Shown: piece by piece, positions 7,399 to 22,313 of the stretch
Position numbering within the stretch: position 1 is the stretch's first letter
Layout of the letters: each line of letters begins with the position of its first letter
Assembly (NCBI GenBank): GCA_963826125.1
Contig: CAWGVV010000001.1
Coordinates: 1,232,635 to 1,296,634 of the forward strand
From: an uncultured delta proteobacterium
GTDB lineage: Bacteria > Desulfobacterota > Desulfarculia > JACQYL01 > CAWGVV01
Direction of reading: 5' to 3'
DNA length: 64,000 nt
Notes under the pieces: model-generated
The model's input: the letters and a program-made list of their open reading frames with translations, nothing else
What the model was told of the DNA's origin: nothing
Database searches by the model: none
Made by a program: the position numbers and the translations under genes

Positions 7399-7451
7399 AG
7401 CATTCTCCTTTGAGCACCATGGGGCACGTCGGCGCGTGCCTGCTCGGAGCT

Positions 7452-7498
7452 AAAAAAAACGTATCCCGGGATAAGTGCGGGGGAATTTCTTCCCCCGC
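7452..7498 (-). terminator. Putative intrinsic terminator after the transaldolase gene
   Basis: On the minus strand there is a 9-bp GC stem GCGGGGGAA/TTCCCCCGC with a 4-nt loop, then the palindrome TATCCCGGGATA, then TTTTTTTT. Confidence 0.4.
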
Positions 7499-7683
7499 GT
7501 CCCCTGCGTGAGATTTCTCGCTGCGCTCGAGATGATAAGCACTTGCATACCAGTATTATTATACCAATAACTTAACATTTTTGAGGGAGGGCATGGGAGG
7601 GAACTTTTTTTAAAAAGATCCCCCCCAACAAGCTACTCCGGCTTTCGCCGGGGTGACGGTTCGGGTCGTTGCTCCGGCTTGCC

Positions 7684-8880: not shown

Positions 8881-8907
8881 TCCGTAGTTCCTCCGCTCGC
8901 TGAAATG

Positions 8908-10272: not shown

Positions 10273-10567
10273 GCATAGCTCCTTTCACCGCCCGTCCCGG
10301 CGACGTGGAAGAATGAAGCAACCGTGTTTACCCAGAGGACACAGGAGAGAATAAGATAACAATAATGTAATAATGCTAGTGAAAAAAATCCGGATTGTAA
10401 AGGACAAAAAACGGAGCATGCGGATGATGGGCGGTAGCGCGGAAGAAAAGCCTCTTGTCCTTCGGACCCGCACAACAAGTTGTCCGGGCCACCCGAAAAG
10501 CAATTTCGTGGCTATAAACGGCTCATTGCTCGGATGCACGTTGCTTTTGCTGAGAATGGAGCGGGTA

Positions 10568-10617
10568 GGCGGTCTTTCACCCTCTCCCTCTGGGAGAGGG
10601 CGGGGTGAGGGTCAAAG
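10568..10617. repeat. GC-rich palindromic REP/MITE-like element, copy A
   Basis: GGCGGTCTTTCACCCTCTCCCTCTGGGAGAGGGCGGGGTGAGGGTCAAAG contains the hairpin CCCTCTCCC-tct-GGGAGAGGG. Confidence 0.7.
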
Positions 10618-10856
10618 GGAGCGTGGGGTGAAAGAAACGGAAAAAGAAGATATAAATGGTTTATTAAAAATATACAATGCAGAACAACTTTGCTAAAACA
10701 TATATTATCGAATTAATCTTTGCCGTATCCCTATCACCTGCGAGTTTGATGTTCTTTTGACTCTTCACTGGAGGTACCGCCATGGCCAATCAGGAACAGC
10801 TCGCAATACTTCAAAAAGGCGTGAAAGTGATACGCCGATACTCTTATGCCTTCGTA

Positions 10857-10903
10857 CCCTCACCCCGGCCCTCTCCCAGAGGGAGAGGGGGGAAAGACCG
10901 CCT
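10857..10903. repeat. GC-rich palindromic REP/MITE-like element, copy B (inverted relative to A, about 94% identical)
   Basis: CCCTCACCCCGGCCCTCTCCCAGAGGGAGAGGGGGGAAAGACCGCC is the reverse complement of copy A with 2-3 differences. Confidence 0.7.
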
Positions 10904-11295
10904 CCTTTTTGCCGATGGTCAATCGGAAACAATGCATGCTTGGTCATTCGCCCTTCTTTGCATGAGGGGCAAACGGATCGTATCGAGATCGATGGAAAGA
11001 AGCCGTACGTGCTGAGCGAAGTACGCCACGCCCTTGGCGGTGCAAAGCGTGAAGAGGAAACAGTTGGCCATGCATCCAGGATGTGACATTCCGAGCAATA
11101 GCGGAAAATTGCACAGCTGGGGGCGGCTGTGCTCCACAAACGGATCGTTTTAATTAAAGCCATTTCCGTGGAGCACAGGCGCCTCGCCTGTGCAACAAAA
11201 TCGCTGTTGGTTGAGAGGCTATCGAAGCACGAAGGAAAATCGCCCGTTTTTCCTTCGACAGGATCCGGCCAAGCTGAAAAGTTTTCCCGGAGGGG

Positions 11296-11334
11296 CGTGG
11301 GGAACCGCCTTTTTCCGAAAGGGGGTCCCCCACG
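11296..11334 (-). terminator. Imperfect hairpin downstream of the biotin carboxylase gene (possible terminator)
   Basis: CGTGGGGAACC ... GGGTCCCCCACG arms immediately 3' of the stop at 11361 on the minus strand. There is no clean U-tract. Confidence 0.3.
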
Positions 11335-11360
11335 GTTATGTCGATGAACTCGACACCTTT

Positions 11361-12719
11361 CTAGACGTGCGGGGACTGGTACTCATGGAACACGGTATTG
11401 ATAAAGTCCGTGTTGAAGTTCCCGGTTCGGTAGGGTTCACTGCGGAGAATCCTGATATTGGCGGGAAGGGTGGTTTTCACTCCCTCGATCCTGAGAGCGG
11501 AGCAGGCCGATTCCAGCAGGTCCATGGCTTCCGCACGGGATTCGCCCCAGGCGATCACCTTGGCCAGCATGGGATCGTAAAACGGCGGAACAGCTCCCCC
11601 CTTCAGCAGGGCGTGGTCGATGCGGACATTCGCGTTGCCGTTAGGGATAAAGAGGTCCGTTATGGTGCCGGGAGCGGGGTGGAAGGTATCGGGGTCTTCG
11701 GCGTATACCCGCGCCTCGATGGCGTGGCCCTTCAGTTGCACCTCGTCCTGGGTGAACGGCAACGGTTCGCCTTGGGCGATGCGGAGCTGCTGTTCCACGA
11801 TGTCGATGCCGGTGATCAACTCGCTGACCGGATGTTCCACCTGCAAGCGGGCGTTGATTTCCATGAAATAGTAGCGCCCTTCACGGGAGCGCAGGAATTC
11901 CATCGTGCCCGCCCCGTAATAGCCCATGGCCTTGGCGAGCCGCAGGGTGTAGTCGACCAGCAGGGCGCGTTCATCCGCCGTAACGACCGGCGAGGGCGAT
12001 TCTTCGATGATCTTCTGGTGGCGGCGCTGGATGGAGCATTCCCGTTCGCCCAGACAGACGTAGTTGCCTTGGGTGTCGCCCAGAAACTGCATTTCGATGT
12101 GCCGCGGACTCAGCAGCACCTTTTCGATGTAGCAGTCCGAGGAGTGAAACGCCACCTTGCCCACGCGCCGGATTCGTTCGAGCACCTCGGATGCCTGTTC
12201 CGGCCCGCTGACCATTTCGATCCCCTTGCCGCCGCCGCCCTTGTCCAGCTTCAGGAACACGGGATAGCCGTGCTGTTCGGCAAAGGCCACGATTTCTTCC
12301 GGCCCGCTGATGGGATCGAGGGTGCCGGGGTTGACCGGCACGCCCGCCTTGGCGGCCACGTGTCGGCAGTAGCATTTGGATTCGACGGCCACGAGCATTT
12401 CCGGGGAAGGCCCGATCCAGGTGACGCCGCTCTCCATGCAGGCCTTGGCGAACTCCGCGTTTTCAGACAGAAAGCCGTAACCGGGATGCACCGCGTCCGC
12501 ACCGGTTTTGCGCACCGCGTCCATGATGGCGTCGATGTTCAGATAGCTCTTCATGGGATTGGAAGGGCCGATGTGGCATGCTTCGTCCGCCTGCGCCACG
12601 TAGGGGGCCCCCGCGTCCGCGTCGGAATAGACCGCCACGGTCTTCAGTCCCATTTTGGCGCAAGTGCGCATGATGCGGGGAACGATTTCACCCCGGTTGG
12701 CGATAAGTACTTTTTTCAT
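11361..12719 (-). CDS. Biotin carboxylase (AccC-type ATP-grasp biotin carboxylase subunit)
   Basis: MKKVLIANRGEIVPRIMRTC... with ATP-grasp motifs and the biotin carboxylase C-terminal domain. 452 aa. Confidence 0.9.
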   Translation of the reverse strand: MKKVLIANRGEIVPRIMRTCAKMGLKTVAVYSDADAGAPYVAQADEACHIGPSNPMKSYLNIDAIMDAVRKTGADAVHPGYGFLSENAEFAKACMESGVTWIGPSPEMLVAVESKCYCRHVAAKAGVPVNPGTLDPISGPEEIVAFAEQHGYPVFLKLDKGGGGKGIEMVSGPEQASEVLERIRRVGKVAFHSSDCYIEKVLLSPRHIEMQFLGDTQGNYVCLGERECSIQRRHQKIIEESPSPVVTADERALLVDYTLRLAKAMGYYGAGTMEFLRSREGRYYFMEINARLQVEHPVSELITGIDIVEQQLRIAQGEPLPFTQDEVQLKGHAIEARVYAEDPDTFHPAPGTITDLFIPNGNANVRIDHALLKGGAVPPFYDPMLAKVIAWGESRAEAMDLLESACSALRIEGVKTTLPANIRILRSEPYRTGNFNTDFINTVFHEYQSPHV

Positions 12720-12740
12720 AGCTTCTCTTCCCCGCCCGGG

Positions 12741-12962
12741 TCACTCCACTTCGAGGACAACCATGGGCGTGTTGACTTCCATCTCATCCCATTCCTTCAC
12801 CAGGATGGACTTCACGGTGCCGTCGTACTCGGAGACGACGGACAGTTCGTTCTTCATGCAGTTGATTACCGCCACTTCCTGGCCTTTTTTCACGCTGTCG
12901 CCCTCATTCACCACGACGCGGGCCACGAGTCCCGGCATATGGGCGTTTACGTTTGCTTCCAT
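12741..12962 (-). CDS. Minimal biotinyl-carrier domain protein (73 aa; BCCP-like, no linker or N-domain)
   Basis: Biotin/lipoyl attachment fold with a Met-Lys hot spot (VINCMKNE). A GGAGG RBS lies 8 nt upstream of the MEANV start. The longer MKEV start in the track would overlap the RBS. Confidence 0.7.
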   Translation of the reverse strand: MEANVNAHMPGLVARVVVNEGDSVKKGQEVAVINCMKNELSVVSEYDGTVKSILVKEWDEMEVNTPMVVLEVE

Positions 12963-13024
12963 GGTAGAAACCTCCTTCAAAACGAACGATGCGTTGGAAT
13001 AGTCGTTTTCCGGTCAACCGATGT

Positions 13025-14008
13025 TCAGGCCAGCGAATCGGGAGTCAACAACGCTTTCTGTTCCTTGCGCGCCGCGACCGCTTCTTCCTGCGAGCTGAGC
13101 GTGAACTTGATGAAATCCCGCGACGGGATACCCTGGCCGATTTTCCACAGGTCGGCGTTGATGACGTTCAGCGCGCACATGTAGCCGCCGAGCGTCGGGC
13201 CGTCCGCGATGAGCAGGATCGGCGTGTTGCCGCAGATGTTGAGCGCACCTCGGATGGCGTATCCGTGGTCGATGATGTTCGAGGGATGGCTCCCCCCTAC
13301 CCCGCCGTCTGTCCGGGAAAAGAAGAAGTCGGGCAGAGCGTCCAGCCGATAGGCGGAACGATTGGAGGTATGCTGAACCTTGAAGGAATTGGTGAACAGA
13401 TAGTTCATTCCCTCTTCGGTGGCGTAGTCCGGGGAGCAGTTGGGGCCAATTATGGCCCGCAGCGTCCATTCCTTGGCATAGGAAGGCACCACGCCCGGTT
13501 TGACCTTCCGGCCGGCAAGGGACGAAAGCGACGCGGAAGGGGCGCCGAACGGAACGACGTCGTCCTTCATGAGCTTTCGCCCTTCAAACCCGCCGTAGCT
13601 GCCGAAGATGCAGGTGGACTTGCTGTGCAGATAGGGGGGCACGTCGATTCCCCCGGCCACGCCGAGATAGCTCCGGAAACCGTTGGGGCCGATGTGGGAA
13701 AACTTGATCACGTCGCCCTTGGAGGCCTTTACCGATTCCCACAGGGGCATGGATTGCCCGTTCAGGGCCGGTTTCATGTCCGTACCGGTAACGGCGATGA
13801 CGCAATCGACGCCGAACTCCGCCTCGAAAAAGCCGCCGGTGATCTCCAGTCCGGCTTCGCCCGGGGCATTGCCCACCAGGAGGTTGGCGAACCCCAGGGC
13901 CACGTTGTCGAACGCTCCGGAAGGTCCCATGCCTTTGCCCAGGTATCCGAGCCTGCCGGGCCAATCCTCCACCAGCGTTTCAATCCCTCCGTTTATCACC
14001 CGTAACAT
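13025..14008 (-). CDS. pxpC: KipA / PxpC-like (allophanate-hydrolase subunit 2 family, carboxyltransferase-like)
   Basis: Start MLRVINGGIETLVEDWPGRLGY... after trimming 60 aa of the track's N-terminal extension. This is the AHS2 / CT_C_D family. 327 aa. Confidence 0.85.
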   Translation of the reverse strand: MLRVINGGIETLVEDWPGRLGYLGKGMGPSGAFDNVALGFANLLVGNAPGEAGLEITGGFFEAEFGVDCVIAVTGTDMKPALNGQSMPLWESVKASKGDVIKFSHIGPNGFRSYLGVAGGIDVPPYLHSKSTCIFGSYGGFEGRKLMKDDVVPFGAPSASLSSLAGRKVKPGVVPSYAKEWTLRAIIGPNCSPDYATEEGMNYLFTNSFKVQHTSNRSAYRLDALPDFFFSRTDGGVGGSHPSNIIDHGYAIRGALNICGNTPILLIADGPTLGGYMCALNVINADLWKIGQGIPSRDFIKFTLSSQEEAVAARKEQKALLTPDSLA

Positions 14009-14030
14009 GGTGTCCCGTCCTTTCTTCGGC

Positions 14031-15017
14031 CTACAGCCGAGGCGCCTTTTTGGTGCCTTCCGCCTGTTTTCTCTTGAGTTCCCGCACTTCGCCCTGCACC
14101 TGTTCCGAATTGAGCCATGCGAGGTAGTCCTTGACCACGATCTTTCCCGTCTCGATCCGGTATTCGTAGTCCGTTTCCTTGTGCACATGGTCGTAGATGT
14201 CGAGGACCTCCGCTTCGGTGACTTCGTGGAACTTCACGCGGTCCGCCGGACGGTAGAGGAAGGGTTCCTCCCGGAACATGGGGTGCTTCTGGCTGAACTG
14301 AAACGTGGGGATGGTACGGCCGAACAACTGATACCCGCCGCCCGTGGGCGTAGTGTAGGTGAACACGCAGGGGCCGCCGATTCCTGCCGCGCCTTCGGGC
14401 GTCCAGGTGCGCGGCGGATTGTATTTGGGAACCACGATGGCGCAGCGAGGGTCGACCGGCCACAGAAACGCGCCGCCCGGCCAGAATCCGCCGCCGCTGT
14501 TGAACCATTCCGTGCCCAGGAACATGTCTTTCACCTGCCGGACGGTGACGCCGTTGCACATGGCGATGTACTCGATGTTATACCCGTCGATGACGTTGGG
14601 CGCGTCCGGCCTCACTTCCTTCACGTATTTCGCCACCGCCTTCTTCGTCTCGGAGTCTTCGAAGGCCAAAGGCAGGTGGATGGTGCGCGATTCCAGCACC
14701 ACGTCGTCCACGGTGGGCATGGAGTCTTCCGCGTCCTTTATTTCCGCGATGAGGGTGGAAACGGTCAGCACTTCCGGGTCGAAATGGAACAGGTTGGTGC
14801 GCAGCCCCGGAACCGTTTCGATGAGGCCCTTGATCTTCTTGGCGTGGATGATGTCGTTGACGGCCAGCATCCGGAAGGAATCTTCAAGATGCGCCCGCTG
14901 TTCCCGGCCGTACTCCACCTGCAGGAAGCCGTCGCCCGCCTGCCGGAAGAGCACTTCGAGCCGGGATTCCGTTTCCGGCATGGTGTCCAGTATCACTTGG
15001 TATTTTGTGTCGTTCAT
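14031..15017 (-). CDS. pxpB: KipI / PxpB-like (allophanate-hydrolase subunit 1 family)
   Basis: 328 aa. Cyclophilin-like AHS1 fold features (…IHLPLAFEDSETKKAVAKYV…). Confidence 0.85.
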   Translation of the reverse strand: MNDTKYQVILDTMPETESRLEVLFRQAGDGFLQVEYGREQRAHLEDSFRMLAVNDIIHAKKIKGLIETVPGLRTNLFHFDPEVLTVSTLIAEIKDAEDSMPTVDDVVLESRTIHLPLAFEDSETKKAVAKYVKEVRPDAPNVIDGYNIEYIAMCNGVTVRQVKDMFLGTEWFNSGGGFWPGGAFLWPVDPRCAIVVPKYNPPRTWTPEGAAGIGGPCVFTYTTPTGGGYQLFGRTIPTFQFSQKHPMFREEPFLYRPADRVKFHEVTEAEVLDIYDHVHKETDYEYRIETGKIVVKDYLAWLNSEQVQGEVRELKRKQAEGTKKAPRL

Positions 15018-15086
15018 GGTCGCGTCTCCCGTGTGTCCAAGAGATTGTAGGTCATCGGCCGCTCGACGTCGGAACGTCGATTAAGG

Positions 15087-15839
15087 TCAAAGCGCCGGAG
15101 AACAGAGGGTAATTCCGGCGCCCTCGAGAGTCTCCCTCACGGTGCGGGCGATTACGTCCGACCCCGGAGTGTCCGAATGGAGACTGACCGAATTTCCTTC
15201 GATATCGATGTCGTTGCCTTCCGTGGTGGCCACCTTGTTTTCCTTCACCATGCGCAGCACGCGCCGGCCTACCTGCGCGGGATCGTGCTTTTCATGATGA
15301 CGGGTGATGACCAGTTTTCCCTCTCCGTCGTAGCCGAGGTCCGCATAGACTTCATGGACCGTGCGAATGCCCATGGATTCGGCGATGGGGGCGATGACGC
15401 CCGCCTTCATCACGTAGAGGTACGGCATCGGTTTGATGTCCTTGACCGCTTCGCAGATGGCGCGGGCCACGTCTTCCCGACGGTGAGCCATTCCATAGAG
15501 CGAACCGTGGGGCTTCACGTGATGCAGCTGCATGCCGACCGCCTCCAGGAATGCCTTGAGGGCGCCCGACTGGTAGAGGGTGATGTCGTAAATTTCATCC
15601 ATGGAGAGGTTCATTTCCCGTCGGCCGAACCCCTGCAGATCGGGCAGACCGGGATGGGAACCCACCTGTACGTTGTGTTCCTTGGCCAGCATGACCGTCC
15701 GCTTCATGACGGACGGGTCACCGGCGTGAAATCCGCAGGCCACGTTGGCGCTGGTGATGTATCGCATGAAGGCGGCATCGTCGCCCATGGTGTACATTCC
15801 GAAGCTTTCGCCCATGTCTGCGTTGAGATCGAGTTGCAT
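15087..15839 (-). CDS. pxpA: LamB/YcsF family lactam-utilisation protein (PxpA-like)
   Basis: MQLDLNADMGESFG...ACGFHAGDP...GSHPGLPD are LamB/YcsF motifs. 250 aa. Confidence 0.85.
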   Translation of the reverse strand: MQLDLNADMGESFGMYTMGDDAAFMRYITSANVACGFHAGDPSVMKRTVMLAKEHNVQVGSHPGLPDLQGFGRREMNLSMDEIYDITLYQSGALKAFLEAVGMQLHHVKPHGSLYGMAHRREDVARAICEAVKDIKPMPYLYVMKAGVIAPIAESMGIRTVHEVYADLGYDGEGKLVITRHHEKHDPAQVGRRVLRMVKENKVATTEGNDIDIEGNSVSLHSDTPGSDVIARTVRETLEGAGITLCSPAL

Positions 15840-15853
15840 GGCTGAGTTCCTCC

Positions 15854-16891
15854 CTAGCGGCCCTTCATGGAGAGCCTGAAACGATCCATGACCACCGCGA
15901 AAATGAGCAGGGCGCCCATGACCACCATCTGCAGGTAACTGCTGATGTTCATGAGGTCCATACCGTTACGGATAAGAACGATAAGAATAGCACCAAATAC
16001 CGCGCCCAGCACGCCGCCTTCGCCGCCCCGCAGGGACACGCCGCCGATCACCGCCGCGGCGATGGATTCCAGGGGGAGCGTCGCGCCCAGGTTGGGTTCG
16101 CCCGAGGCCACGCGGGCGGTGAGCATGGCGCCGGTGATTCCGGCCAGCGTGCCGCACAGCACGTAGGCCAGACATTTGTACTTTCTGACGGCAATCCCCG
16201 AAAGGCGCGCCGCTTCCTCGTTGCCGCCGATGGCGTAGAAGTACCTGCCGATGCGGGTGCGATTGAGCATGATGGAGACGATGATCACCAGCACAAGCGC
16301 GACCAGCACCGGGACCGGAATCCCCCACACCTTGCCGATCCCCAGCATCTTATTGAGGCTCTCCGGCAGATTGAAGATGGGAACGCCTCCCGACAGCAGG
16401 AGCGCGCCTCCGTGCACCACGGACATCATGCCCATGGTAACCACGAACGGAGACACGTGGAAAATGGCGATGGTGACGCCGTTGGCTAGTCCCACGAGCG
16501 TGGAGATGGCGATACCTACGAGGATCCCCGCCATGATGGCCAGAAAGGGATCGTGGATGGAAACCATCGCCTGTGCGGACGCGATGCTGGTGAGCGCCAC
16601 GGCCGAACCGACGGACAGGTCGAATCCCGCGCAGAGGATGGTGAGCATCTGGCCCGTTGTGATCATGATCAGGTAGGTTGCCTGACGCCCGACGGTCATC
16701 ATGTTCGACAGGGTGAGGAACCGTTCTTCGGCGACGCTGAACAGAATCATCAGCGCCGCGAGCAGGAAAGGCAGCACCCCCGCCCGTACGAAGGCCCGTT
16801 TCAGCAGGTTGCCAGGGCCCTGAGGTTTCATTGGTTCGCGGGCCGCAACGGGCTTAAAGCTCCCCGTCTGCGGCATGGCCGATTCGCCCAT
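15854..16891 (-). CDS. CUT2-family (ribose/monosaccharide-type) ABC transporter permease
   Basis: Polytopic and RbsC-like. It overlaps the ATPase gene by 38 nt. The true start may be an internal Met (the track N-terminus is 345 aa). Confidence 0.8.
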   Translation of the reverse strand: MGESAMPQTGSFKPVAAREPMKPQGPGNLLKRAFVRAGVLPFLLAALMILFSVAEERFLTLSNMMTVGRQATYLIMITTGQMLTILCAGFDLSVGSAVALTSIASAQAMVSIHDPFLAIMAGILVGIAISTLVGLANGVTIAIFHVSPFVVTMGMMSVVHGGALLLSGGVPIFNLPESLNKMLGIGKVWGIPVPVLVALVLVIIVSIMLNRTRIGRYFYAIGGNEEAARLSGIAVRKYKCLAYVLCGTLAGITGAMLTARVASGEPNLGATLPLESIAAAVIGGVSLRGGEGGVLGAVFGAILIVLIRNGMDLMNISSYLQMVVMGALLIFAVVMDRFRLSMKGR

Positions 16892-18392
16892 TTTTCAACT
16901 CCATATAATCGTAACCGAAACAACCGCTCAGAATCTTTTCCTCGGTGGCTTCGGAGCCCAGCATGGTGCTGCAGATGGTTCCACCATGCATGACCAGAAT
17001 CGTGTGACACAAGTGGAGAATTTCGGTGAGTTCCGACGAGATAAAGATCACCGCGGCGCCCTGCTCGGCCCGTTCCTTGAGGAACAGATAGACTTCCCGT
17101 TTGGCGCCGATGTCGATACCGCAACTCGCCTCGTCGAATACGTATACTTTAAAGTCCCTGGTGAGGCCGCGGGAAAGCATCACTTTCTGCTGGTTCCCTC
17201 CGCTCAGATACTGCACGACCTTGTCGATGCGTCCGGGACGGATGTTCATTTTTTCCACGAGCTTTTTTGCAAAGGAGATTTCACGGTTGCCATCGATGAA
17301 CCCGTATTTCTCGAACAGGGGCACCGAAGCAAGGGTTTGATTTTCCCTGACCGGACGGCACAGAACGAGGCCCTCCTTGTGGCGGTCGGGGGGGAAATAG
17401 AGGATTCCCCTCTGGATGGAATCGGCGGGCTGGATTTTGGTCAATTCGGTTCCTTCGAGCATCACTCGGCCGCCCGTGATGGGTTCCAGGCCGAAAATGG
17501 CCCTGCCCACACGAGATTTGCCGGCACCTACCAGCCCCGCGATGCCAAGGATTTCACCCCGCCTCACGGAAAAACTGACGTCGCGCAATCCGGTTACTGT
17601 GGACAGGTCTTCCACGGAAACGACGACGTCGCCCAAACCGTGATTGATGGCGGGGTAAATGTCTTCGTACTGCCGGCCCGTCATCAGGGTGATAAGGGTC
17701 TGTTCGTCGGCGTCGTGCATGTCCAGGGTCTTCACGTATCTGCCGTCCCTGAGCACGGTGATCCGATCGCCGATCTTTCTGAGTTCGTCGATGCGATGCG
17801 AAATATAGATGATGCCCACGCCTTCCCGCTTCAGTCTGCCAATGACGTCGAACAGGCAGTTCACTTCGCGATCGGTGAGGGAGGCGGTCGGCTCATCCAG
17901 GATGAGGACCGACATCTTCTGCTGGATCGCCTTGGCGATCTCGGTCATCTGCCGTTCGGACCGCTGCAGGTCGGACACCCTCCTGGTGGGATCGAGATCG
18001 AACCCGAGGTCCTGCAACGACTTCCGGGCGGCCTTCATCATGGTCCCGAGGTCCAGGAACCCGCTCTTCATGACTTCCTGCCCCAGAAAGAGGTTTTCCG
18101 CCACGGTGAGCTGGGGAACCAGACTGAACTCCTGATACACGGCGGAGATACCCTGCATGCGTGCATCGAACGGAGAACGGAAGGCGACCGGACGTCCCTT
18201 CAGTGTGAGGGTGCCTTCATCCGGGAGACAGGACCCGGCGAGCACTTTTGTCAGCGTGGATTTCCCCGCGCCGTTCTCTCCGAACAGCACGTGAACTTCC
18301 CCGGAGCGCAATTCGAAGCATACTCGATCCAGCGCCAGAACGCCAGGGTACCGCTTGGTGATATTTTCCGCTTTGAGGAGGACTTCCGGCAT
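16854..18392 (-). CDS. CUT2-family sugar ABC transporter ATP-binding protein (two fused ABC domains)
   Basis: Duplicated Walker A (GENGAGKST and a second domain). Signatures are LSGGNQQKVMLSRGL and LSDLQRSERQMTEIAKAI. 512 aa. Confidence 0.9.
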   Translation of the reverse strand: MPEVLLKAENITKRYPGVLALDRVCFELRSGEVHVLFGENGAGKSTLTKVLAGSCLPDEGTLTLKGRPVAFRSPFDARMQGISAVYQEFSLVPQLTVAENLFLGQEVMKSGFLDLGTMMKAARKSLQDLGFDLDPTRRVSDLQRSERQMTEIAKAIQQKMSVLILDEPTASLTDREVNCLFDVIGRLKREGVGIIYISHRIDELRKIGDRITVLRDGRYVKTLDMHDADEQTLITLMTGRQYEDIYPAINHGLGDVVVSVEDLSTVTGLRDVSFSVRRGEILGIAGLVGAGKSRVGRAIFGLEPITGGRVMLEGTELTKIQPADSIQRGILYFPPDRHKEGLVLCRPVRENQTLASVPLFEKYGFIDGNREISFAKKLVEKMNIRPGRIDKVVQYLSGGNQQKVMLSRGLTRDFKVYVFDEASCGIDIGAKREVYLFLKERAEQGAAVIFISSELTEILHLCHTILVMHGGTICSTMLGSEATEEKILSGCFGYDYMELKNGRIGHAADGEL

Positions 18393-18487
18393 TTTTATCG
18401 CTCCTTCGCCGGGTATTCCCCGGTGACCCGGAACGATTTGCTTCGTTCCGGGTCCTTAAGGCTGGTCAAACATCTTGCAGTGGCTGG

Positions 18488-19636
18488 TTACTTCTTGGGT
18501 TTTACGGAGAACTGAGGCCTGAAATCCTTGGGCCCGAACAGCATTTCATAGGGATACTTGTCGATGTTGGCCTTGGTGATGGTGGGGATGATGGGGCCGG
18601 CCCGGAAGGGGAAGTCCTTGCCCGGAACTTCGCCGTTCAGGATACGGACCATCGCGTCCACCGCCATCTGGCCCTGCGTAACGGTCAGATCGGAAGGAGC
18701 CGCGGCTACGGACCCGTCTTTGATCTTCTCGTACAGAGGCGGAATGATATAGGTGGAAACAACCTTGACTTCCTTGCGGCCCTGTTCGGCGATCGGACCC
18801 ACGGCGGCGTCGGCGGCCACGGCGTTCCCCACAATATAGTCAACCTTGGGGAAGGTCTTGAGCGCGTTTTCGATCAGTTCGAGCTGGACGTTCTTGCCGG
18901 TGTCGCCCCATTTGACGGCGAGGATGTTGATCTTTCCCGAGAACTTGGAAGTGGCATCCTTGAAGCCGTCAAGGGTGTCCGGCGCCCATCCGGAACCGGC
19001 CGGACCGGGCAGAAAAATCACGTTGACTTCCTTCTTGTCCTTGGCATCCTGCATGACGAATTCGCCGGCGTGGTAGCCCATGTCGAAAAAGGAAACCAGG
19101 GCCTTGGCCTTGATGGAGGGGGCCTGGATGTCGTTGATCACTTCAACGACCGGAGTGCCCTTCTTGACGATCTCCCCGACCACCGGGTCGAGAGCGGTAT
19201 AGGAGATGGCGCCCAGGATGATGCCGTTCACTCCCTGCTGGGACAGGTTTTCAATCTGGTCAACCTGCTTGGACAGCTCGGTATATCCGCCCGCCGCAAC
19301 GAGCTGTATGCCTACGCCCAGCCGTTCGGCTTCGGAAATGATGCCGTAGTTGACCGCCAGCCAGTAGGGGTCTTTGAGGTGGGGGAAAGAGACCCCGATG
19401 GTGTAGGGCTTATTGGCTTTTGCCGGGGGAGTCCAGTCTTCCAGTTTGGGGCCCTGCAGACTTTTTGAGGGGCGGCCGGGCTGTTTCTCCTTCACGTCGT
19501 ACTTGCCATAGTAGCTGTTGACCTTCACCGGCCACCACTTATCGGCGGCGAAACTCAAGCCGGCGCACAGGACAAATGCGATACTGGTGAGAAAGAGAAC
19601 ACTTCTCATTGCTTTCGGGGAACGCCACTTACTCAT
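18488..19636 (-). CDS. Periplasmic sugar-binding protein (RbsB-like, type I PBP) with signal peptide
   Basis: N-terminal signal MRSVLFLTSIAFVLCAGLSFA, then a PBP fold. 382 aa. Confidence 0.85.
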   Translation of the reverse strand: MSKWRSPKAMRSVLFLTSIAFVLCAGLSFAADKWWPVKVNSYYGKYDVKEKQPGRPSKSLQGPKLEDWTPPAKANKPYTIGVSFPHLKDPYWLAVNYGIISEAERLGVGIQLVAAGGYTELSKQVDQIENLSQQGVNGIILGAISYTALDPVVGEIVKKGTPVVEVINDIQAPSIKAKALVSFFDMGYHAGEFVMQDAKDKKEVNVIFLPGPAGSGWAPDTLDGFKDATSKFSGKINILAVKWGDTGKNVQLELIENALKTFPKVDYIVGNAVAADAAVGPIAEQGRKEVKVVSTYIIPPLYEKIKDGSVAAAPSDLTVTQGQMAVDAMVRILNGEVPGKDFPFRAGPIIPTITKANIDKYPYEMLFGPKDFRPQFSVKPKK

Positions 19637-19724
19637 ACCATCGCTCCTTTCGGTGTAACGGGTGGTTCGATACGGGAATCGTATCGATGGATCCTGCAGT
19701 TCCGCGTTACGGCGCCACGGACTT

Positions 19725-20060
19725 TCACGCCGTCTCTCTCACCGTCGACGCGTTTACCCCCTGAATGTTGCTTCCAACCCCCCTCTCGATGAATTCCAGA
19801 ACCAGCCTGTTGACTTTCGGCGTCGGCACCGACAGGACCAACCATTCGCGCCCCTGTTTGTCGCGAAGGATGGTTTCCCGTTCGACGGCGATGCCTTCGT
19901 CGGCCAGCAGCTTTCGTGGATCGATCACCGGACGTCTTTCCTGTATCTCAATGAGGATATGGGAAAGCTTCGGTGAAAGCGTCCTTGCGATGTGCTCCTG
20001 TAAGACCGTTTCCACGAACCATCGACCTCCCGCGGAAACATATCTCAAGAAGCATGCCAT
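19725..20060 (-). CDS. Hypothetical small protein (111 aa) leading the ABC/carboxylase array
   Basis: The track ORF begins at a TTG inside the operator region. The internal Met (MACFLRYVSAGGRWFVETVLQEH...) gives a compact, charged 111-aa product. Confidence 0.4.
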   Translation of the reverse strand: MACFLRYVSAGGRWFVETVLQEHIARTLSPKLSHILIEIQERRPVIDPRKLLADEGIAVERETILRDKQGREWLVLSVPTPKVNRLVLEFIERGVGSNIQGVNASTVRETA

Positions 20061-20254
20061 CGGCACTAATGGGGCTGCCACAGGCGAGGTACATATTTTT
20101 ATCTTACTGAAATATTTTCTCTTTAATCCATACAAGCGATATTTTGTGGGCCATATGGCAACCGACTTCAATTCCCTCCTACATGTGTACTTTTTATGCA
20201 TTTCTGCATCAAAAAAAGTCGAAACCGGGTGGAAAGCCCATGGCCAGCGGCTCA

Positions 20255-20288
20255 ATGCGTTAACGCATCATAATATGCGCTAACGCAT
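20255..20288. promoter_or_regulatory. Two tandem 14-bp palindromes (ATGCGTTAACGCAT and ATGCGCTAACGCAT, centres 20 bp apart), a candidate operator or UAS
   Basis: Read directly from the sequence between the σ54-activator stop (20332) and the first gene of the ABC/carboxylase array, in an AT-rich stretch. Confidence 0.55.
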
Positions 20289-20331
20289 CATAATGAACGG
20301 GCGTATGAAGGAAAAATTGAAACTGACAGGA

Positions 20332-22101
20332 TCAGACCGGAGCGTCCGGCAGGGCGACCCGATATTTACGCAACTTGCGGCTCACGGTCGACTGGTTCAC
20401 CCCCAGACGGCGCGCCGCTTCCCGCTGGGAACCGTACTTCCGCATGGCCTCGATGATGTGCTCCACTTCCACTTGTTCCACGATTTCGGGCAGAGGCTGC
20501 GGCTCCCCGCTCCCCCGCACGGCGGGGTCGAAGGAGACCGTCACTTCCGCCGGGAGATCGCCCGGCACAACGGTGTCCGAGGAACCCATGACCAACATGG
20601 ATTCCACGATGTTCTGCAGCTCCCGGACGTTGCCCGGATAGGAATAGTGCAGCAGGTATTCGAGCGCGTCACGGTCGATACGCTTGTGCAGTTGATGCTT
20701 TTCACCGATCTCCTTCATGAGGAAGGTGATCAGATCGAAGATGTCCTGGGTGCGTTCCCGCAGAGGAGGAATGTGCAGGGGAACCACGTTCAGGCGGTAG
20801 AAGAGGTCCTTGCGGAACATGCCGTTCCGTACCTGTTCCGCGAGGTCCCTGTTGGTGGCGGCGATGACCCGCGTATCCACCTGCCGGACTTCGGAGCCGC
20901 CCACGCGGACAAGCTTCTTTTCATCGAGAAACCGCAGCAGTTTCACCTGCTGGCTGAGCGGCACTTCGGCGATTTCATCCAGAAAAAGCGTGCCTCCGTC
21001 GGCCATTTCGACCAGCCCCACTTTTCCTTTTGGCCCCGCCCCGGTAAACGCGCCCCTTTCGTAGCCGAAAAGTTCCGATTCGAAGAGGGTTTCCACGATG
21101 GCCGCGCAGTCCACCCGGATGAACGGCCCAGCCGTCCGGTCGGATCGGCCGTGGATGAGCTTGGCCAACATGCCCTTGCCCACGCCCGACTCACCCGTCA
21201 GCAGCACCGTCGAATCGAACCGCGCCACCCGCATGGCCTTTTCGTAGACGGTTTCCATCACCTTGCTGCGGGAAATGAAATGGCTCGCCTCCTTTTCCCG
21301 GAGTTTCAGTCCGGAAAGCTCGTACCGGTAGAGGTCCACCAGGGCCTTGCTCTCTTCCAGTTCCGTCCGCATCCTGTCGAGTTCGGTGATGTCGCGGTCG
21401 TTGATGATGATGACGTCGATCTCGCCCTTGGGATTGAAGATGGGGCTGCCTGTGGCCAGTATCTTCTTGTTGGCCTTGGTGGTCTGCACCATCGTGACAG
21501 TGGTTTTCAGCTTCAACACTTCCAGGCTCACTGAGTTGCTGAAATATTTCTCCGCCACCAGATCGGCAACGTTCCGTCCGATGACCTCTTCGGCCACGCA
21601 CCCCGTAATGCGTTCGGCCGCCTTGTTCAACTTCACCACGTTTCCGTGCCGGTCGGTGATCCACAATCCGTCGTAGGAGGACTCCATGATCGCTTCGAGC
21701 AGATCGGCCATCTGCTTGTAGGAGTCCAGTTCCAGCGCCACTTTATCGTAGGAAAACACGCCCTGGAAAAAGGAAACCACCGCAGCCACGGTGCCTTCTA
21801 TTCGCACGGGCAGCCGGCTGGCGATGTAGAGCTTGTTCCGGATGACCGTACGGGCGCCGATCTGGGGAACCCCGTCCTCGAAGACCCTGGTCACGTCCGC
21901 CCATCCCGCTTCGTCAATGACTTCGGCGTGCCGGCCTTCAAGGTCGGTCAGGGGAATATTCAAAAGCCTTGCCGCCGAAGCATTCGCATACGCCACCTGT
22001 CCGGACGGGATGATCAGGGTAACGCCGTCGGGGAGAATGTCCAGGAGGTTACGAGCGGCCGCAAGAAATGTCGATACGCTGGGTGGAAGGGATATGTTCA
22101 T
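20332..22101 (-). CDS. σ54-dependent transcriptional activator (PAS-PAS-AAA+-HTH, NtrC family)
   Basis: GESGVGKGMLA Walker A, the GAFTGA motif (ERGAFTGAGPKG), a C-terminal Fis-type HTH (QREAARRLGVNQSTVSRKLRKY), and two N-terminal PAS domains. The start MNISLPP was chosen after removing a 97-aa low-complexity extension. Confidence 0.85.
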   Translation of the reverse strand: MNISLPPSVSTFLAAARNLLDILPDGVTLIIPSGQVAYANASAARLLNIPLTDLEGRHAEVIDEAGWADVTRVFEDGVPQIGARTVIRNKLYIASRLPVRIEGTVAAVVSFFQGVFSYDKVALELDSYKQMADLLEAIMESSYDGLWITDRHGNVVKLNKAAERITGCVAEEVIGRNVADLVAEKYFSNSVSLEVLKLKTTVTMVQTTKANKKILATGSPIFNPKGEIDVIIINDRDITELDRMRTELEESKALVDLYRYELSGLKLREKEASHFISRSKVMETVYEKAMRVARFDSTVLLTGESGVGKGMLAKLIHGRSDRTAGPFIRVDCAAIVETLFESELFGYERGAFTGAGPKGKVGLVEMADGGTLFLDEIAEVPLSQQVKLLRFLDEKKLVRVGGSEVRQVDTRVIAATNRDLAEQVRNGMFRKDLFYRLNVVPLHIPPLRERTQDIFDLITFLMKEIGEKHQLHKRIDRDALEYLLHYSYPGNVRELQNIVESMLVMGSSDTVVPGDLPAEVTVSFDPAVRGSGEPQPLPEIVEQVEVEHIIEAMRKYGSQREAARRLGVNQSTVSRKLRKYRVALPDAPV

Positions 22102-22313
22102 TGTTTCCGGGATCGGTGAGCGATTGCATCGTGTTGTTTCGTTGGAGGGAACATACCACAGCGGTGCGCGGAACGCAAAAGCTCGTGGAGGGGCTCCTTC
22201 CCTTCCGGGTTTCTTCTTTCCCGGAACGAACGGACGCCCGAGGGGGCGTCGGGGAGTTCTTCTCCGCCCTACCCGCCGCAGGCAGAGGAACAGCGTTCCC
22301 GAAGCGTTCCCCG

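What the first reader, a model, noticed from the sequence alone, without database searches (positions are those of the whole stretch)
11361..20331. Split urea-carboxylase-like enzyme (BC + minimal BCCP + KipA + KipI + LamB) wired directly to its own CUT2 ABC importer
What the sequence shows: ten minus-strand genes run head to tail with tiny gaps or overlaps. Their order is a small hypothetical gene, the SBP, the tandem ATPase, the permease, LamB/YcsF, KipI, KipA, the 73-aa biotinyl protein and the biotin carboxylase. The array is preceded by a palindromic operator pair and a divergently placed PAS-σ54 activator. Established: PxpABC (LamB+KipI+KipA) is the biotin-independent ATP-dependent 5-oxoprolinase. 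Urea carboxylase is the characterised enzyme in which a biotin carboxylase and BCCP are fused to a KipA/KipI-type carboxyltransferase. Inference: a stand-alone BC plus a linker-less 73-aa BCCP immediately downstream of KipI/KipA/LamB predicts a multi-subunit, biotin-dependent carboxylase (or carboxylation-driven lactam/ureide-opening enzyme). Its substrate would be an amide, lactam or ureido compound delivered by the adjacent sugar-type importer, rather than acetyl-CoA carboxylase or plain 5-oxoprolinase. As far as I know the substrate and physiological role of this arrangement are uncharacterised.
Basis: partly seen in the sequence, partly recalled or inferred. Interest (0 to 1): 0.78.

Follow-up and report, generated by a model that had tools for sequence, protein, structure and literature searches.

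The report
Biotin-driven lactam-opening enzyme operon
An anaerobic bacterium carries an operon for a five-protein, biotin-dependent enzyme related to urea carboxylase, and gene neighbours in about 80 other anaerobes suggest it spends ATP to open stable ring amides such as 2-pyrrolidinone into GABA, a reaction for which no efficient enzyme has been described.

Summary
The gene array is real. On the minus strand lie LamB/PxpA, a 328-aa CT_C_D (KipI-like) protein, a 327-aa CT_A_B (KipA-like) protein, a 73-aa biotinyl protein and a biotin carboxylase. They follow a CUT2 ABC importer and a small ACT-like gene. Two details in the finding are wrong. The PAS-sigma54 activator is co-directional, not divergent. 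The real small gene is 19725-20015, not the 70-aa ORF.

The two carboxyltransferase subunits resemble urea carboxylase far more than PxpB/PxpC, but the position of a urea carboxylase Asp is an invariant Gly. The same five-gene core recurs in 80 species of strict anaerobes in two phyla. In relatives a GABA transaminase (36/80), an aldehyde:ferredoxin oxidoreductase (23/80), an OYE reductase and sometimes BirA/BioY sit inside or beside the core.

Best reading: a dedicated split carboxylase that N-carboxylates a gamma- or delta-lactam, after which LamB opens the ring to an omega-amino acid. It would be a bacterial multi-subunit analogue of the fungal lamA/lamB lactam-utilisation genes.

The substrate is inferred, not shown. 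This window has no transaminase. Novelty: a new variant of a known kind. No biochemical characterisation turned up in the searchable literature.

The parts
11361..12719 (-). Biotin carboxylase subunit (452 aa), last gene of the operon
   Evidence: Biotin_carb_N, CPSase_L_D2 and Biotin_carb_C are all present. It scores 450 bits to the solved BC 8hz4. The K116/K159/H209/K238/E276/E288/R292/R338-equivalent motifs are visible in that alignment; the E. coli numbering is from my memory. TIGR00514 accC scores 526.8, below its cut-off of 626.5.
12741..12962 (-). Minimal 73-aa biotin carboxyl carrier protein: the biotinyl domain only
   Evidence: Biotin_lipoyl, E 2.7e-14. Lys37, in the motif VINCMKNE, aligns to the biotinyl-Lys of solved carriers. 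The motif VINCMK(N/T)E plus KEWDE is conserved in about 60 loci. TIGR00531 BCCP scores 28.4, below its cut-off of 115.2.
13025..14008 (-). Carboxyltransferase subunit, subdomains A+B (KipA/PxpC-like, 327 aa)
   Evidence: CT_A_B 254.7 bits. It scores 191.6 bits to K. lactis urea carboxylase 3va7 residues 480-785 but 111.9 bits to YbgK. The PxpC equivalog scores 166.9, below its cut-off of 500.
14031..15017 (-). Carboxyltransferase subunit, subdomains C+D (long KipI-like, 328 aa)
   Evidence: CT_C_D 136.4 bits. It covers urea carboxylase TIGR02712 positions 785-1097 at 229.8 bits, against 45.5 bits for PxpB (cut-off 145.55). It scores 129 bits to 3va7 and 45.6 to YbgJ. The family is at least 64% identical across 80 species. 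Gly177 replaces the urea carboxylase Asp; Lys198 and Tyr221 are kept.
15087..15839 (-). LamB/YcsF (PxpA-type) subunit, presumed metal-dependent ring-opening hydrolase
   Evidence: LamB_YcsF 301.9 bits. PxpA subfamily NF003814 scores 305.7, above its cut-off of 226. It scores 234.6 bits to PH0986 (1v6t).
15854..16891 (-). CUT2 ABC permease
   Evidence: BPD_transp_2. The best NCBIfam hits are ribose/allose/arabinose-type permeases, all below their cut-offs.
16854..18392 (-). Tandem ABC ATPase
   Evidence: Two ABC_tran domains. AraG/XylG/RbsA-like, below their cut-offs.
18488..19636 (-). Periplasmic substrate-binding protein with signal peptide (TorT-like CUT2 type)
   Evidence: Peripla_BP_4. NF008185 TorT scores 309.5, above its cut-off of 200. 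The closest solved structure is the CUT2 binding protein 4yhs (269.6 bits), then TorT 3o1h (144.7 bits). The signal peptide is visible in the sequence.
19725..20015 (-). Small conserved protein (96 aa, GTG start), first gene after the promoter; predicted ACT-like fold
   Evidence: 38-46% identical homologs sit at the same position in 7 related loci. No Pfam or NCBIfam hit. Single-sequence AF2 gives pLDDT 72 and a beta-alpha-beta-beta-alpha-beta fold. Top Foldseek matches are ACT domains of aspartate kinase, E 1.5e-3, TMq 0.58.
20044..20059 (-). Candidate sigma54 -24/-12 promoter, TGGCATGCTTCTTGAG
   Evidence: Found in the window. Similar elements sit in the same intergenic region of relatives: L002 TGGCACGCTTCTTGTC, L004 TGGCCCGGTTCTTGAT, L012 TGGCCCACTTTTTGAT and L013 TGGCATAATTCTTGTT. 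The -12 element reads TTGA, not the consensus TTGC.
20254..20293 (-). Two tandem 20-bp repeats, each with an ATGC-N6-GCAT palindrome; presumed activator binding sites (UAS)
   Evidence: Sequence. ATGC-N6-GCAT palindromes also occur upstream in L004 and L012. They lie about 200-230 bp upstream of the -24/-12 element.
20332..22101 (-). PAS-PAS-AAA+-HTH sigma54 enhancer-binding protein, co-directional with the operon
   Evidence: Sigma54_activat 221.8 bits, PAS and HTH_8/HTH_50. GAFTGA at residue 447. The ORF extends to 22392, but its first 97 residues are Arg/Pro-rich and the homologs are about 583 aa, so M98 (22101) is the probable start. Homologs are present in 36/80 loci.

Best explanation
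This is a sigma54-controlled catabolic operon for a dedicated five-subunit, biotin-dependent enzyme that opens a stable cyclic amide, together with an uptake system for that compound. The substrate is most probably 2-pyrrolidinone (gamma-butyrolactam), or possibly delta-valerolactam.

Proposed mechanism; all chemical steps are inferred.
1. The TorT-like binding protein and the ABC transporter import the lactam.
2. The biotin carboxylase uses ATP and bicarbonate to carboxylate biotin on the 73-aa carrier.
3. The KipA-like/KipI-like heterodimer is a urea-carboxylase-type carboxyltransferase. It passes the carboxyl group to the lactam nitrogen, as urea carboxylase does with urea. That converts the unreactive amide into an imide-like N-carboxy-lactam.
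4. LamB, the PxpA-type metal hydrolase, opens the ring.
5. The resulting N-carboxy-amino acid loses CO2 spontaneously.

The net reaction is lactam + ATP + H2O -> omega-amino acid (GABA or 5-aminovalerate) + ADP + Pi.

In relatives the product is then handled by an operon-encoded GABA transaminase and an aldehyde:ferredoxin oxidoreductase, giving succinate or glutarate. In this genome those genes must lie elsewhere. The PAS-sigma54 activator binds the two ATGC-N6-GCAT sites and drives the -24/-12 promoter upstream of the small ACT-like gene.
For: Shown by computation.

- Domain identities of all the genes.
- KipI-like and KipA-like are closest to the urea carboxylase CT domain: 129 and 192 bits to 3va7, against 46 and 112 bits to YbgJ/YbgK.
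- The position of urea carboxylase Asp991 in 3va7 (recalled, not checked, as Asp1584, a catalytically important residue) is an invariant Gly-Phe here, while the KYNP Lys and the Tyr are kept. That argues for a non-urea acceptor.
- The same Gly-Phe/Lys/Tyr pattern marks the fungal ~1240-aa 'putative urea carboxylase' family. Two members of that family carry a LamB domain in the same gene model.
- The LamB-KipI-KipA-BCCP-BC core is conserved in 80 species of Thermodesulfobacteriota and Bacillota, in two gene orders.
- The carrier protein has a family-specific CMK(N/T)E motif.
- An aminotransferase scoring above the TIGR00700 GABA-transaminase cut-off (572-577 against 506.65) is present in 36/80 loci. 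It often sits between LamB and KipI, and it occurs in 28/52 loci that have at least 5 kb on both flanks.
- Aldehyde:ferredoxin oxidoreductase occurs in 23 loci, an OYE reductase in 15, BirA-like genes beside 4 distinct loci and BioY-ECF beside one.

From the literature.

- Lactam hydrolysis is endergonic: caprolactam +23 kJ/mol. The unrelated caprolactamase needs ATP and bicarbonate. PxpA is described as the probable metal lactamase (PMC8453981).
- KipA/KipI homologs physically bind the biotin of a BCCP domain (PMC13012033).
- A. nidulans lamA and lamB are lactam-catabolism genes co-regulated with the GABA transaminase gatA (PMC8016842).
Against: - No experiment supports this. Substrate, intermediate and stoichiometry are all inferred.
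- The window has no transaminase, AOR or OYE gene within 64 kb, so the GABA link rests on relatives.
- GabT-type enzymes also take 5-aminovalerate and beta-alanine, so ring size is not fixed by this evidence.
- The frequent OYE/enoate-reductase neighbour is not explained by a saturated lactam substrate.
- LamB passes the NCBIfam PxpA (5-oxoprolinase) subfamily cut-off.
- In a rough NJ tree the family is not sister to the fungal LamA-type clade. The analogy is therefore functional, not orthology.
- The importer type varies between loci.
- The -12 element is TTGA rather than TTGC.
Confidence: 0.6

Rival explanations
1. It is a biotin-dependent version of 5-oxoprolinase. The substrate would be 5-oxoproline (pyroglutamate), opened to glutamate for detoxification or as a carbon and nitrogen source.
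For: LamB passes the PxpA subfamily cut-off, 305.7 against 226. PxpABC is the characterised LamB+KipI+KipA enzyme. 5-oxoproline is itself a gamma-lactam and is ubiquitous. S. aureus has a pxpB-pxpC-accB-accC-pxpA operon annotated this way (PMC11315280).
Against: KipI-like and KipA-like fail the PxpB and PxpC equivalog cut-offs by a wide margin and are urea-carboxylase-like instead. Glutamate needs no class-III omega-transaminase or aldehyde oxidoreductase, yet a GabT-equivalog or AOR accompanies the core in 44/80 loci. An inducible importer and a sigma54 activator fit catabolism of an external compound.
Confidence: 0.15
2. The chemistry is the same but the ring is different: delta-valerolactam, caprolactam, an unsaturated lactam or pyridone first reduced by the OYE enzyme, or a cyclic imide or ureide.
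For: GabT-type enzymes accept 5-aminovalerate (my knowledge). OYE or large enoate-reductase genes are directly downstream or upstream in at least 15 loci, which suggests a C=C reduction step before ring opening. Transporter types vary between loci.
Against: The transaminase passes the 4-aminobutyrate equivalog model specifically. The fungal precedent is 2-pyrrolidinone to GABA (my memory of Katz & Hynes 1989; regulon in PMC8016842). No glutarate or adipate pathway genes were seen among conserved neighbours.
Confidence: 0.25
3. It is a split urea or guanidine carboxylase that assimilates nitrogen.
For: The best database matches of KipI-like and KipA-like are to urea carboxylase. JGI names some homologs 'urea carboxylase'.
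Against: The residue aligned to the urea carboxylase Asp (LGDVYLG motif) is an invariant Gly, whereas D-type proteins form a separate clade. No allophanate hydrolase/amidase, carboxyguanidine deiminase or urea transporter appears among conserved neighbours. LamB is not part of urea or guanidine pathways.
Confidence: 0.04
4. It is a housekeeping acetyl-CoA carboxylase accB/accC pair that merely sits next to a PxpABC-type operon.
For: NCBIfam's top names for the two proteins are ACC subunits.
Against: Both score below the AccC and AccB equivalog cut-offs. The carrier lacks the N-terminal domain and linker and has a non-canonical CMKN motif. The pair is syntenic with KipI/KipA/LamB in at least 55 species across two phyla, with gaps of about 10-30 nt. 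No accA or accD appeared among the conserved neighbour clusters that were annotated or among the Pfam-annotated genes of three loci; the window was not scanned for them.
Confidence: 0.02
5. It has a regulatory role. The KipI/KipA pair would sequester a biotinyl carrier or inhibit a kinase, as with B. subtilis KipI/KipA or the mycobacterial MSMEG_0435-0436 on the LCC complex, rather than catalyse a reaction.
For: MSMEG_0435-0436 binds BCCP biotin and had no detectable urea carboxylase activity (PMC13012033).
Against: The protein family is highly conserved (at least 64% identity across phyla). It has its own BC and BCCP. It is embedded with transporters, a transaminase and an aldehyde oxidoreductase under an inducible promoter. 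All of this fits an enzyme.
Confidence: 0.03

Closest known systems
Aspergillus nidulans lamA/lamB lactam-utilisation genes (LamA = ~1240-aa 'putative urea carboxylase'; LamB = founding LamB/YcsF protein)
   Same: Both pair a urea-carboxylase-type BC + CT(A-D) + BCCP machinery with a LamB protein. In both, the residue aligned to the urea carboxylase Asp is replaced by Gly-Phe while the KYNP Lys and the Tyr are kept. Both are linked to GABA catabolism: the fungal AmdR regulon includes gatA (PMC8016842), and bacterial relatives carry gabT in the operon.
   Different: Here the enzyme is split into four polypeptides plus LamB. It occurs in strict anaerobes, under sigma54 control, with a dedicated importer. 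In a rough tree it falls in a separate clade of stand-alone CT_C_D proteins, not with the fungal fused clade. That the fungal family hit here includes A. nidulans LamA is inferred from names and the LamB fusions, not verified. I found no biochemistry for LamA/LamB either.
Urea carboxylase / urea amidolyase (K. lactis, PDB 3va7 and 5i8i; TIGR02712)
   Same: It is the closest solved and modelled relative of both CT subunits. Both have the BC, four-subdomain CT and BCCP parts, and both presumably N-carboxylate an amide nitrogen from carboxybiotin.
   Different: Urea carboxylase is a single polypeptide; this enzyme is split. The Asp in the LGDVYLG motif is Gly here. No allophanate hydrolase partner is present; the partner is LamB instead.
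PxpABC 5-oxoprolinase (B. subtilis, E. coli YbgJKL; Niehaus et al. 2017)
   Same: Both have the LamB + KipI + KipA trio, open a gamma-lactam and depend on ATP. LamB here passes a PxpA subfamily model.
   Different: PxpB is about 200-240 aa; KipI-like here is 328 aa with the extra urea-carboxylase-type region. The PxpB and PxpC equivalog scores are far below their cut-offs. This system has its own BC and BCCP. The neighbours point to an omega-amino acid rather than glutamate.
ATP-dependent lactamases of the hydantoinase/oxoprolinase family (CapAB caprolactamase, OplAB valerolactamase)
   Same: Both face the same thermodynamic problem and use ATP-driven activation of a stable lactam, followed in the pathway by an omega-transaminase. 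CapAB even requires bicarbonate (PMC8453981).
   Different: The protein families are unrelated, and those enzymes use no biotin. OplAB has only trace activity on gamma-butyrolactam (PMC11033972).
S. aureus pxpB-pxpC-accB-accC-pxpA operon and mycobacterial MSMEG_0435-0436
   Same: KipI/KipA-type proteins are genetically or physically coupled to BC/BCCP (PMC11315280; PMC13012033).
   Different: I expect the S. aureus and mycobacterial proteins to be of the short PxpB/PxpC type, but this was not compared directly here. Their substrates are also unknown. No GabT or AOR context is reported for them.

Membership tests
Biotin-dependent carboxylase (generic BC + BCCP + CT) | ATP-grasp biotin carboxylase with intact catalytic motifs | tested here: met
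   Three BC Pfam domains. 450 bits to the solved BC, with the KxGGGG, RRHQK, EINARLQVEHPV and R338-equivalent motifs visible. Residue roles are from my memory.
Biotin-dependent carboxylase (generic BC + BCCP + CT) | Carrier domain with a biotinyl-lysine in an M-K motif | tested here: met
   Lys37 in CMKN aligns with the AMKM Lys of solved carriers. The motif is conserved as CMK(N/T)E in the family. Actual biotinylation is not testable here.
Biotin-dependent carboxylase (generic BC + BCCP + CT) | A carboxyltransferase component | tested here: met
   CT_A_B and CT_C_D proteins homologous to the urea carboxylase CT domain.
Urea carboxylase (EC 6.3.4.6, TIGR02712) | Single BC-CT-BCCP polypeptide scoring above the equivalog cut-off | tested here: not met
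   Four separate genes. Per-subunit scores are 474, 279, 230 and 35 bits against a cut-off of 1303.85.
Urea carboxylase (EC 6.3.4.6, TIGR02712) | Active-site Asp in the LGDVYLG motif (Asp1584 in amidolyase numbering, from my memory of Fan et al. 2012) | tested here: not met
   It aligns to an invariant Gly177 in NSGGGFWPGG. D-type and G-F-type homologs separate cleanly.
Urea carboxylase (EC 6.3.4.6, TIGR02712) | Partner allophanate hydrolase (amidase signature) fused or adjacent | tested here: not met
   None appears among the neighbour clusters present in at least 5 of 80 loci or in three Pfam-annotated loci. Rare occurrences were not excluded.
PxpABC 5-oxoprolinase | PxpA (LamB/YcsF) above family cut-off | tested here: met
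   NF003814 scores 305.7, above 226. The equivalog models NF003813 and NF003815 score below their cut-offs.
PxpABC 5-oxoprolinase | PxpB and PxpC above equivalog cut-offs | tested here: not met
   TIGR00370 scores 45.5, below 145.55. NF045499 scores 166.9, below 500.
PxpABC 5-oxoprolinase | Activity on 5-oxoproline without biotin | not testable with these tools
   Needs an enzyme assay. The conserved BC/BCCP synteny argues against biotin independence.
Acetyl-CoA carboxylase AccB/AccC | AccC and AccB equivalog scores; full-length AccB with N-terminal domain and linker | tested here: not met
   TIGR00514 scores 526.8, below 626.5. TIGR00531 scores 28.4, below 115.2. The carrier is 73 aa, the biotinyl domain only.
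Acetyl-CoA carboxylase AccB/AccC | Works with AccA/AccD; a housekeeping single copy in the genome | tested here: inconclusive
   No second BC or BCCP lies within the 64-kb window. No accA or accD appeared among the conserved neighbour clusters that were annotated or the Pfam-annotated genes of three loci; the window was not scanned for them. The rest of the genome could not be searched.
Fungal LamA/LamB lactam utilisation | Urea-carboxylase-like carboxylase lacking the urea carboxylase Asp, paired with LamB | tested here: met
   G-F at the Asp site in both families. LamB is adjacent here and is fused or merged in two fungal gene models.
Fungal LamA/LamB lactam utilisation | Orthology (same clade) with the fungal fused proteins | tested here: not met
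   In a rough NJ tree the window family sits in a stand-alone clade apart from the fungal G-F clade. Identity to P0211 is about 30%, against 35-36% to the best-scoring fused D-type (urea-carboxylase-like) proteins.
Fungal LamA/LamB lactam utilisation | Required for growth on 2-pyrrolidinone; product GABA | not testable with these tools
   Indirect support only: a GabT equivalog in 36/80 related loci, none in this window.
Sigma54-dependent operon | bEBP with a GAFTGA AAA+ domain, upstream binding sites and a -24/-12 promoter | tested here: met
   Sigma54_activat 221.8 bits and GAFTGA at residue 447. Tandem palindromes at 20254-20293. TGGCAT-N5-TTGAG at 20044-20059, with counterparts in relatives. 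The -12 GC is imperfect, and the transcription start is not testable here.
CUT2 ABC importer | Peripla_BP_4 binding protein + tandem ATPase + BPD_transp_2 permease | tested here: met
   The ligand is unknown. The binding protein also exceeds the NCBIfam TorT cut-off although it sits in a transporter operon.

The most novel reading that the evidence does not exclude
This is the natural gamma-butyrolactam (2-pyrrolidinone) hydrolase of anaerobes. It would work by a previously undemonstrated principle: transient N-carboxylation of an amide by carboxybiotin to make hydrolysis of a resonance-stabilised lactam exergonic, followed by spontaneous loss of the CO2. If so, it would explain the biochemistry of the fungal lamA/lamB genes. 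It would also hint that other KipI/KipA-LamB systems, including some annotated as PxpABC and the mycobacterial Rv0263c/Rv0264c pair, use borrowed biotin carriers.
Probability: 0.4. Interest if true: 0.75.

Novelty: new variant of a known kind. Interest (0 to 1): 0.62.

Why it matters
Five- and six-membered lactams are kinetically and thermodynamically resistant to hydrolysis. A 2023 study states that no enzyme efficiently opens gamma-butyrolactam, and the ATP-dependent OplAB enzyme shows only trace activity (PMC11033972).

A conserved enzyme that couples biotin carboxylation to lactam opening would matter in four ways.
- It would add a new reaction type to the biotin-dependent carboxylases.
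- It would give a biochemical meaning to the long-known fungal lamA/lamB genes, and to thousands of genes annotated 'urea carboxylase', 'allophanate hydrolase subunit' or 'acetyl-CoA carboxylase' in anaerobes.
- It would suggest how sulfate reducers and syntrophs use polyamine- or GABA-derived lactams.
- It would offer a candidate biocatalyst for nylon-4 and nylon-5 monomer recycling.

It also corrects likely annotation errors here: ACC subunits, 5-oxoprolinase and TorT.

Tried and rejected
- Literature searches found no characterisation. Terms covered LamB/KipI/KipA with biotin carboxylase, pxpABC with biotin, lactam or pyrrolidone carboxylase, and allophanate hydrolase subunit with aminobutyrate. 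They returned only context papers. Niehaus 2017, Fan 2012 and Katz & Hynes 1989 are not held in the library, so statements from them rest on memory.
- Strict regex searches for the sigma54 promoter and UAS in relatives found nothing. A relaxed scoring did.
- An Rfam scan of the whole window gave no riboswitch or RNA family.
- The promoter/terminator scan gave nothing above the shuffled expectation.
Taxonomy is inferred from the nearest loci only.
- A search of the window for GabT, AOR, OYE, DUF1097 or a second BC/BCCP was negative.
- The 70-aa ORF 19633-19845 was rejected as a gene because it has no homolog.
- The ORF 10765-11163 downstream of the BC gene has no family hit and was left out.
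- Apparent clusters 'unk253', 'unk315' and 'unk123' were rejected as antisense or overlapping-frame artefacts of GabT, AOR and unk201.
- The housekeeping ACC, split urea carboxylase and purely regulatory readings were considered and given low weight (see rivals).

Full report
**Observation**

ORF listing and profile searches confirm a head-to-tail minus-strand array:
- biotin carboxylase, 11361-12719
- a 73-aa biotinyl protein, 12741-12962
- a CT_A_B (KipA/PxpC-like) protein, 13025-14008
- a CT_C_D (KipI/PxpB-like) protein, 14031-15017
- LamB/YcsF, 15087-15839
- a CUT2-type ABC permease, a tandem ATPase and a periplasmic binding protein, 15854-19636

A 100%-identical public contig carries the same gene calls. 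Most genes are preceded by an RBS-like purine run, weak before the biotin carboxylase and the permease. No minus-strand terminator-like site lies between the KipA-like and biotinyl genes, and such sites are no more frequent than in shuffled sequence.

Three details in the finding are wrong.
- The PAS-sigma54 activator is on the same strand immediately upstream, so it is co-directional, not divergent. Its ORF runs 20332-22392 and it carries GAFTGA at residue 447. Its first 97 codons look untranslated, so the likely start is 22101.
- The list names nine genes, not ten.
- The 70-aa ATG ORF at 19633-19845 has no homolog. The frame 19725-20015 (GTG start, GGGAGG RBS) encodes a 96-aa protein conserved at the same position in 7 related loci.

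The intergenic region holds two tandem 20-mers with ATGC-N6-GCAT palindromes (20254-20293). It also holds a -24/-12-like element, TGGCATGCTTCTTGAG (20044-20059), about 30 nt upstream of the GTG. Comparable elements occur in the same intergenic region of relatives.

**What the enzyme subunits are**

The two carboxyltransferase proteins are not ordinary PxpB/PxpC.
- The 328-aa protein covers urea carboxylase model positions 785-1097 at 230 bits, against 45.5 bits for PxpB (cut-off 145.55).
- The 327-aa protein scores 279 bits to urea carboxylase, against 167 bits for PxpC (cut-off 500).
- Against solved structures they score 129 and 192 bits to the K. lactis urea carboxylase CT domain, but only 46 and 112 bits to E. 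coli YbgJ/YbgK.

In the alignment, urea carboxylase Asp991 of 3va7 aligns to Gly177. From memory of Fan et al. 2012 this is Asp1584 in amidolyase numbering and catalytically important. Gly177 is invariant in the motif NSGGGFWPGG. The KYNP lysine and the following tyrosine are conserved.

An exhaustive search of 1.84 billion representatives shows two classes of urea-carboxylase-type CT_C_D homologs. One class has LGDVYLG (Asp); these are mostly ~1200-aa fused urea carboxylases. The other classes have Gly-Phe at that position. In a rough neighbour-joining tree the window family lies in a clade of stand-alone ~330-aa proteins, separate from the fused clades.

The biotin carboxylase has all three BC domains and the expected catalytic motifs, but it scores below every AccC equivalog cut-off. 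The carrier is only the biotinyl domain. Lys37 aligns with the biotinyl lysine. The motif is a family-specific VINCMK(N/T)E followed by KEWDE. LamB passes one PxpA subfamily model and is closest to PH0986.

**Comparative genomics**

A scan of one genome per species with an alignment of the KipI-like protein returned 80 loci. All come from strict anaerobes. Among Thermodesulfobacteriota they include Desulfomonilaceae, Desulfarculaceae, Syntrophobacteraceae, Desulfobacterales, Desulfoferrobacter and Desulfosoma. Among Bacillota they include Pelotomaculum, Desulfotruncus, Desulfocucumis, Anaerovorax and Clostridium. The nearest locus is an uncultured deltaproteobacterial MAG at 86% identity.

tblastn maps show that LamB, KipI, KipA, BCCP and BC stay together, in two gene orders. 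The exceptions are truncated contigs and about 9 Bacillota loci that keep a canonical AMKM carrier but no adjacent BC.

Clustering all flanking ORFs and annotating the recurrent clusters gave these neighbours:
- A class-III aminotransferase that exceeds the TIGR00700 4-aminobutyrate transaminase cut-off (572-577 against 506.65). It occurs in 36/80 loci and in 28/52 loci with at least 5 kb on both flanks. It often lies between LamB and KipI, for example L002 8623-9927.
- An aldehyde:ferredoxin oxidoreductase in 23 loci.
- An OYE flavin reductase in 15 loci.
- DUF1097 in 17 loci.
- An unknown 201-aa protein in 16 loci.
- The sigma54 activator in 36 loci.
- The CUT2 importer in about 20 loci.

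Pfam-annotated contigs add alternative transporters (SSF, MFS). In one Desulfobulbaceae locus, BirA plus BioY-ECF lie directly downstream. BirA-like genes flank 4 distinct loci.

The window itself has no transaminase, AOR, OYE or second BC/BCCP.

**Mechanism**

What is shown: the parts list, the relation to urea carboxylase, the substitution at the position of the urea carboxylase Asp, and the synteny with a GABA-type transaminase and an aldehyde oxidoreductase.

What is inferred: ATP and bicarbonate carboxylate biotin on the 73-aa carrier. The KipA/KipI heterodimer transfers the carboxyl group to the ring nitrogen of a lactam, as urea carboxylase does with urea. LamB hydrolyses the activated N-carboxy-lactam. 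The carbamate product decarboxylates to the omega-amino acid.

This fits the published thermodynamics and context.
- Caprolactam hydrolysis is +23 kJ/mol, and the unrelated caprolactamase requires ATP and bicarbonate. PxpA is regarded as the metal lactamase component (PMC8453981).
- KipA/KipI homologs have been seen gripping the biotin of a BCCP domain (PMC13012033).

The downstream logic in relatives is a complete anaerobic route: omega-amino acid, then semialdehyde, then dicarboxylate, via GabT and AOR. The most likely substrate is 2-pyrrolidinone giving GABA. Delta-valerolactam giving 5-aminovalerate, or an unsaturated precursor reduced by the OYE enzyme, cannot be excluded.

**Comparison with known systems**

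The closest functional precedent is the A. nidulans lam locus. lamA and lamB are lactam-catabolism genes in the AmdR regulon together with the GABA transaminase gatA (PMC8016842). From memory, LamA is a ~1240-aa 'putative urea carboxylase' required with LamB for converting 2-pyrrolidinone to GABA.

A fungal ~1240-aa family found here carries BC, CT_A_B, CT_C_D and biotinyl domains but no allophanate hydrolase. It shares the Gly-Phe/Lys/Tyr pattern. In two gene models it is merged with a LamB domain. The bacterial system is not its ortholog but looks like a split analogue.

- It is not a urea carboxylase. It is split, the position of the urea carboxylase Asp is a Gly, and no allophanate hydrolase is present.
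- It is not canonical PxpABC, because the PxpB and PxpC models fail.
- It is not ACC, because the AccB and AccC models fail and it has a different conserved context.

S. aureus has a pxpB-pxpC-accB-accC-pxpA operon (PMC11315280). Coupling of KipI/KipA to BC/BCCP is therefore already visible in annotated genomes, but I found no functional study of it.

**Novelty and verdict**

No biochemical characterisation of this five-gene module turned up in seven full-text searches. A 2023 paper states that no enzyme efficiently opens gamma-butyrolactam (PMC11033972).

I rate this a new variant of a known kind: a biotin-dependent carboxylase with a urea-carboxylase-type CT, coupled to LamB.

I put confidence at about 0.75-0.8 that it is a dedicated biotin-dependent enzyme opening a cyclic amide to an omega-amino acid, and at about 0.4-0.45 that the substrate is specifically 2-pyrrolidinone. 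The 0.6 given for the best explanation covers the gamma- or delta-lactam reading as a whole. Interest is 0.62.

Noticed in passing
window 19725-20015 (-): A conserved 96-aa protein with no family assignment is the first gene after the sigma54 promoter. Single-sequence AF2 (pLDDT 72) gives a beta-alpha-beta-beta-alpha-beta fold. Its best, weak, structural matches are ACT regulatory domains. It may be a small-molecule-binding regulator or accessory protein.
   Followed up: partly
window 18488-19636 (-): The ABC-operon binding protein exceeds the NCBIfam cut-off for 'TMAO reductase system periplasmic protein TorT' (309.5 against 200), although it sits with a permease and an ATPase. Annotation pipelines would probably misname it. 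The closest structure is the CUT2 binding protein 4yhs.
   Followed up: partly
window 22102-22392 (-): The activator ORF extends 97 codons upstream of the likely start. That stretch is Arg/Pro-rich with low complexity, and homologs are about 583 aa. The long ORF is probably an over-extension.
   Followed up: partly
window 12741-12962 and loci L002-L081: The carrier proteins of this system have a non-canonical biotinylation motif, VINCMK(N/T)E, and a conserved KEWDE. About 9 Bacillota loci have a canonical EAMKME carrier instead and no adjacent biotin carboxylase. In several of them (for example L047, L053, L055, L056, L061) the carrier is followed by DUF1097 and an unknown 282-aa protein.
   Followed up: partly
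L037 12404-13009 and 15 other loci: An unknown 201-aa protein with no Pfam or NCBIfam hit is inserted between BCCP and BC, or sits just after BC, in 16 loci. It may be an extra subunit. It is absent from the window.
   Followed up: no
L083/L084 (= L025) 15020-18134: A biotin ligase (BirA) and a BioY-ECF biotin transporter lie directly downstream of the carboxylase core in a Desulfobulbaceae MAG. The locus is flanked by two class-III aminotransferases, an SSF transporter and an 869-aa OYE-FeS enoate-reductase-type protein.
   Followed up: partly
proteins P0352 and P0387 (fungal): Two fungal 'urea amidolyase/carboxylase' gene models contain a LamB_YcsF domain in the same polypeptide as BC-CT-BCCP. 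They are either real fusions or merged neighbouring lamA/lamB genes.
   Followed up: no
window 10300-11360: About 1 kb downstream of the operon has no convincing gene. The 132-aa ORF 10765-11163 has no family hit. The stretch contains several hairpins, including a terminator-like palindrome at 11283-11304.
   Followed up: no
window 830-10272: Downstream neighbours look like unrelated metabolism: a URO-D-like protein, two FGGY sugar kinases, a CN-hydrolase, an FMN reductase, a transaldolase-family protein and a pyridine-nucleotide disulfide oxidoreductase (8908-10272).
   Followed up: no
window 42951-45989 (+): A 1012-aa protein carries FAD/NAD-binding and 4Fe-4S domains. It looks HdrA-like, which fits an anaerobic sulfate-reducer or syntroph genome.
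   Followed up: no
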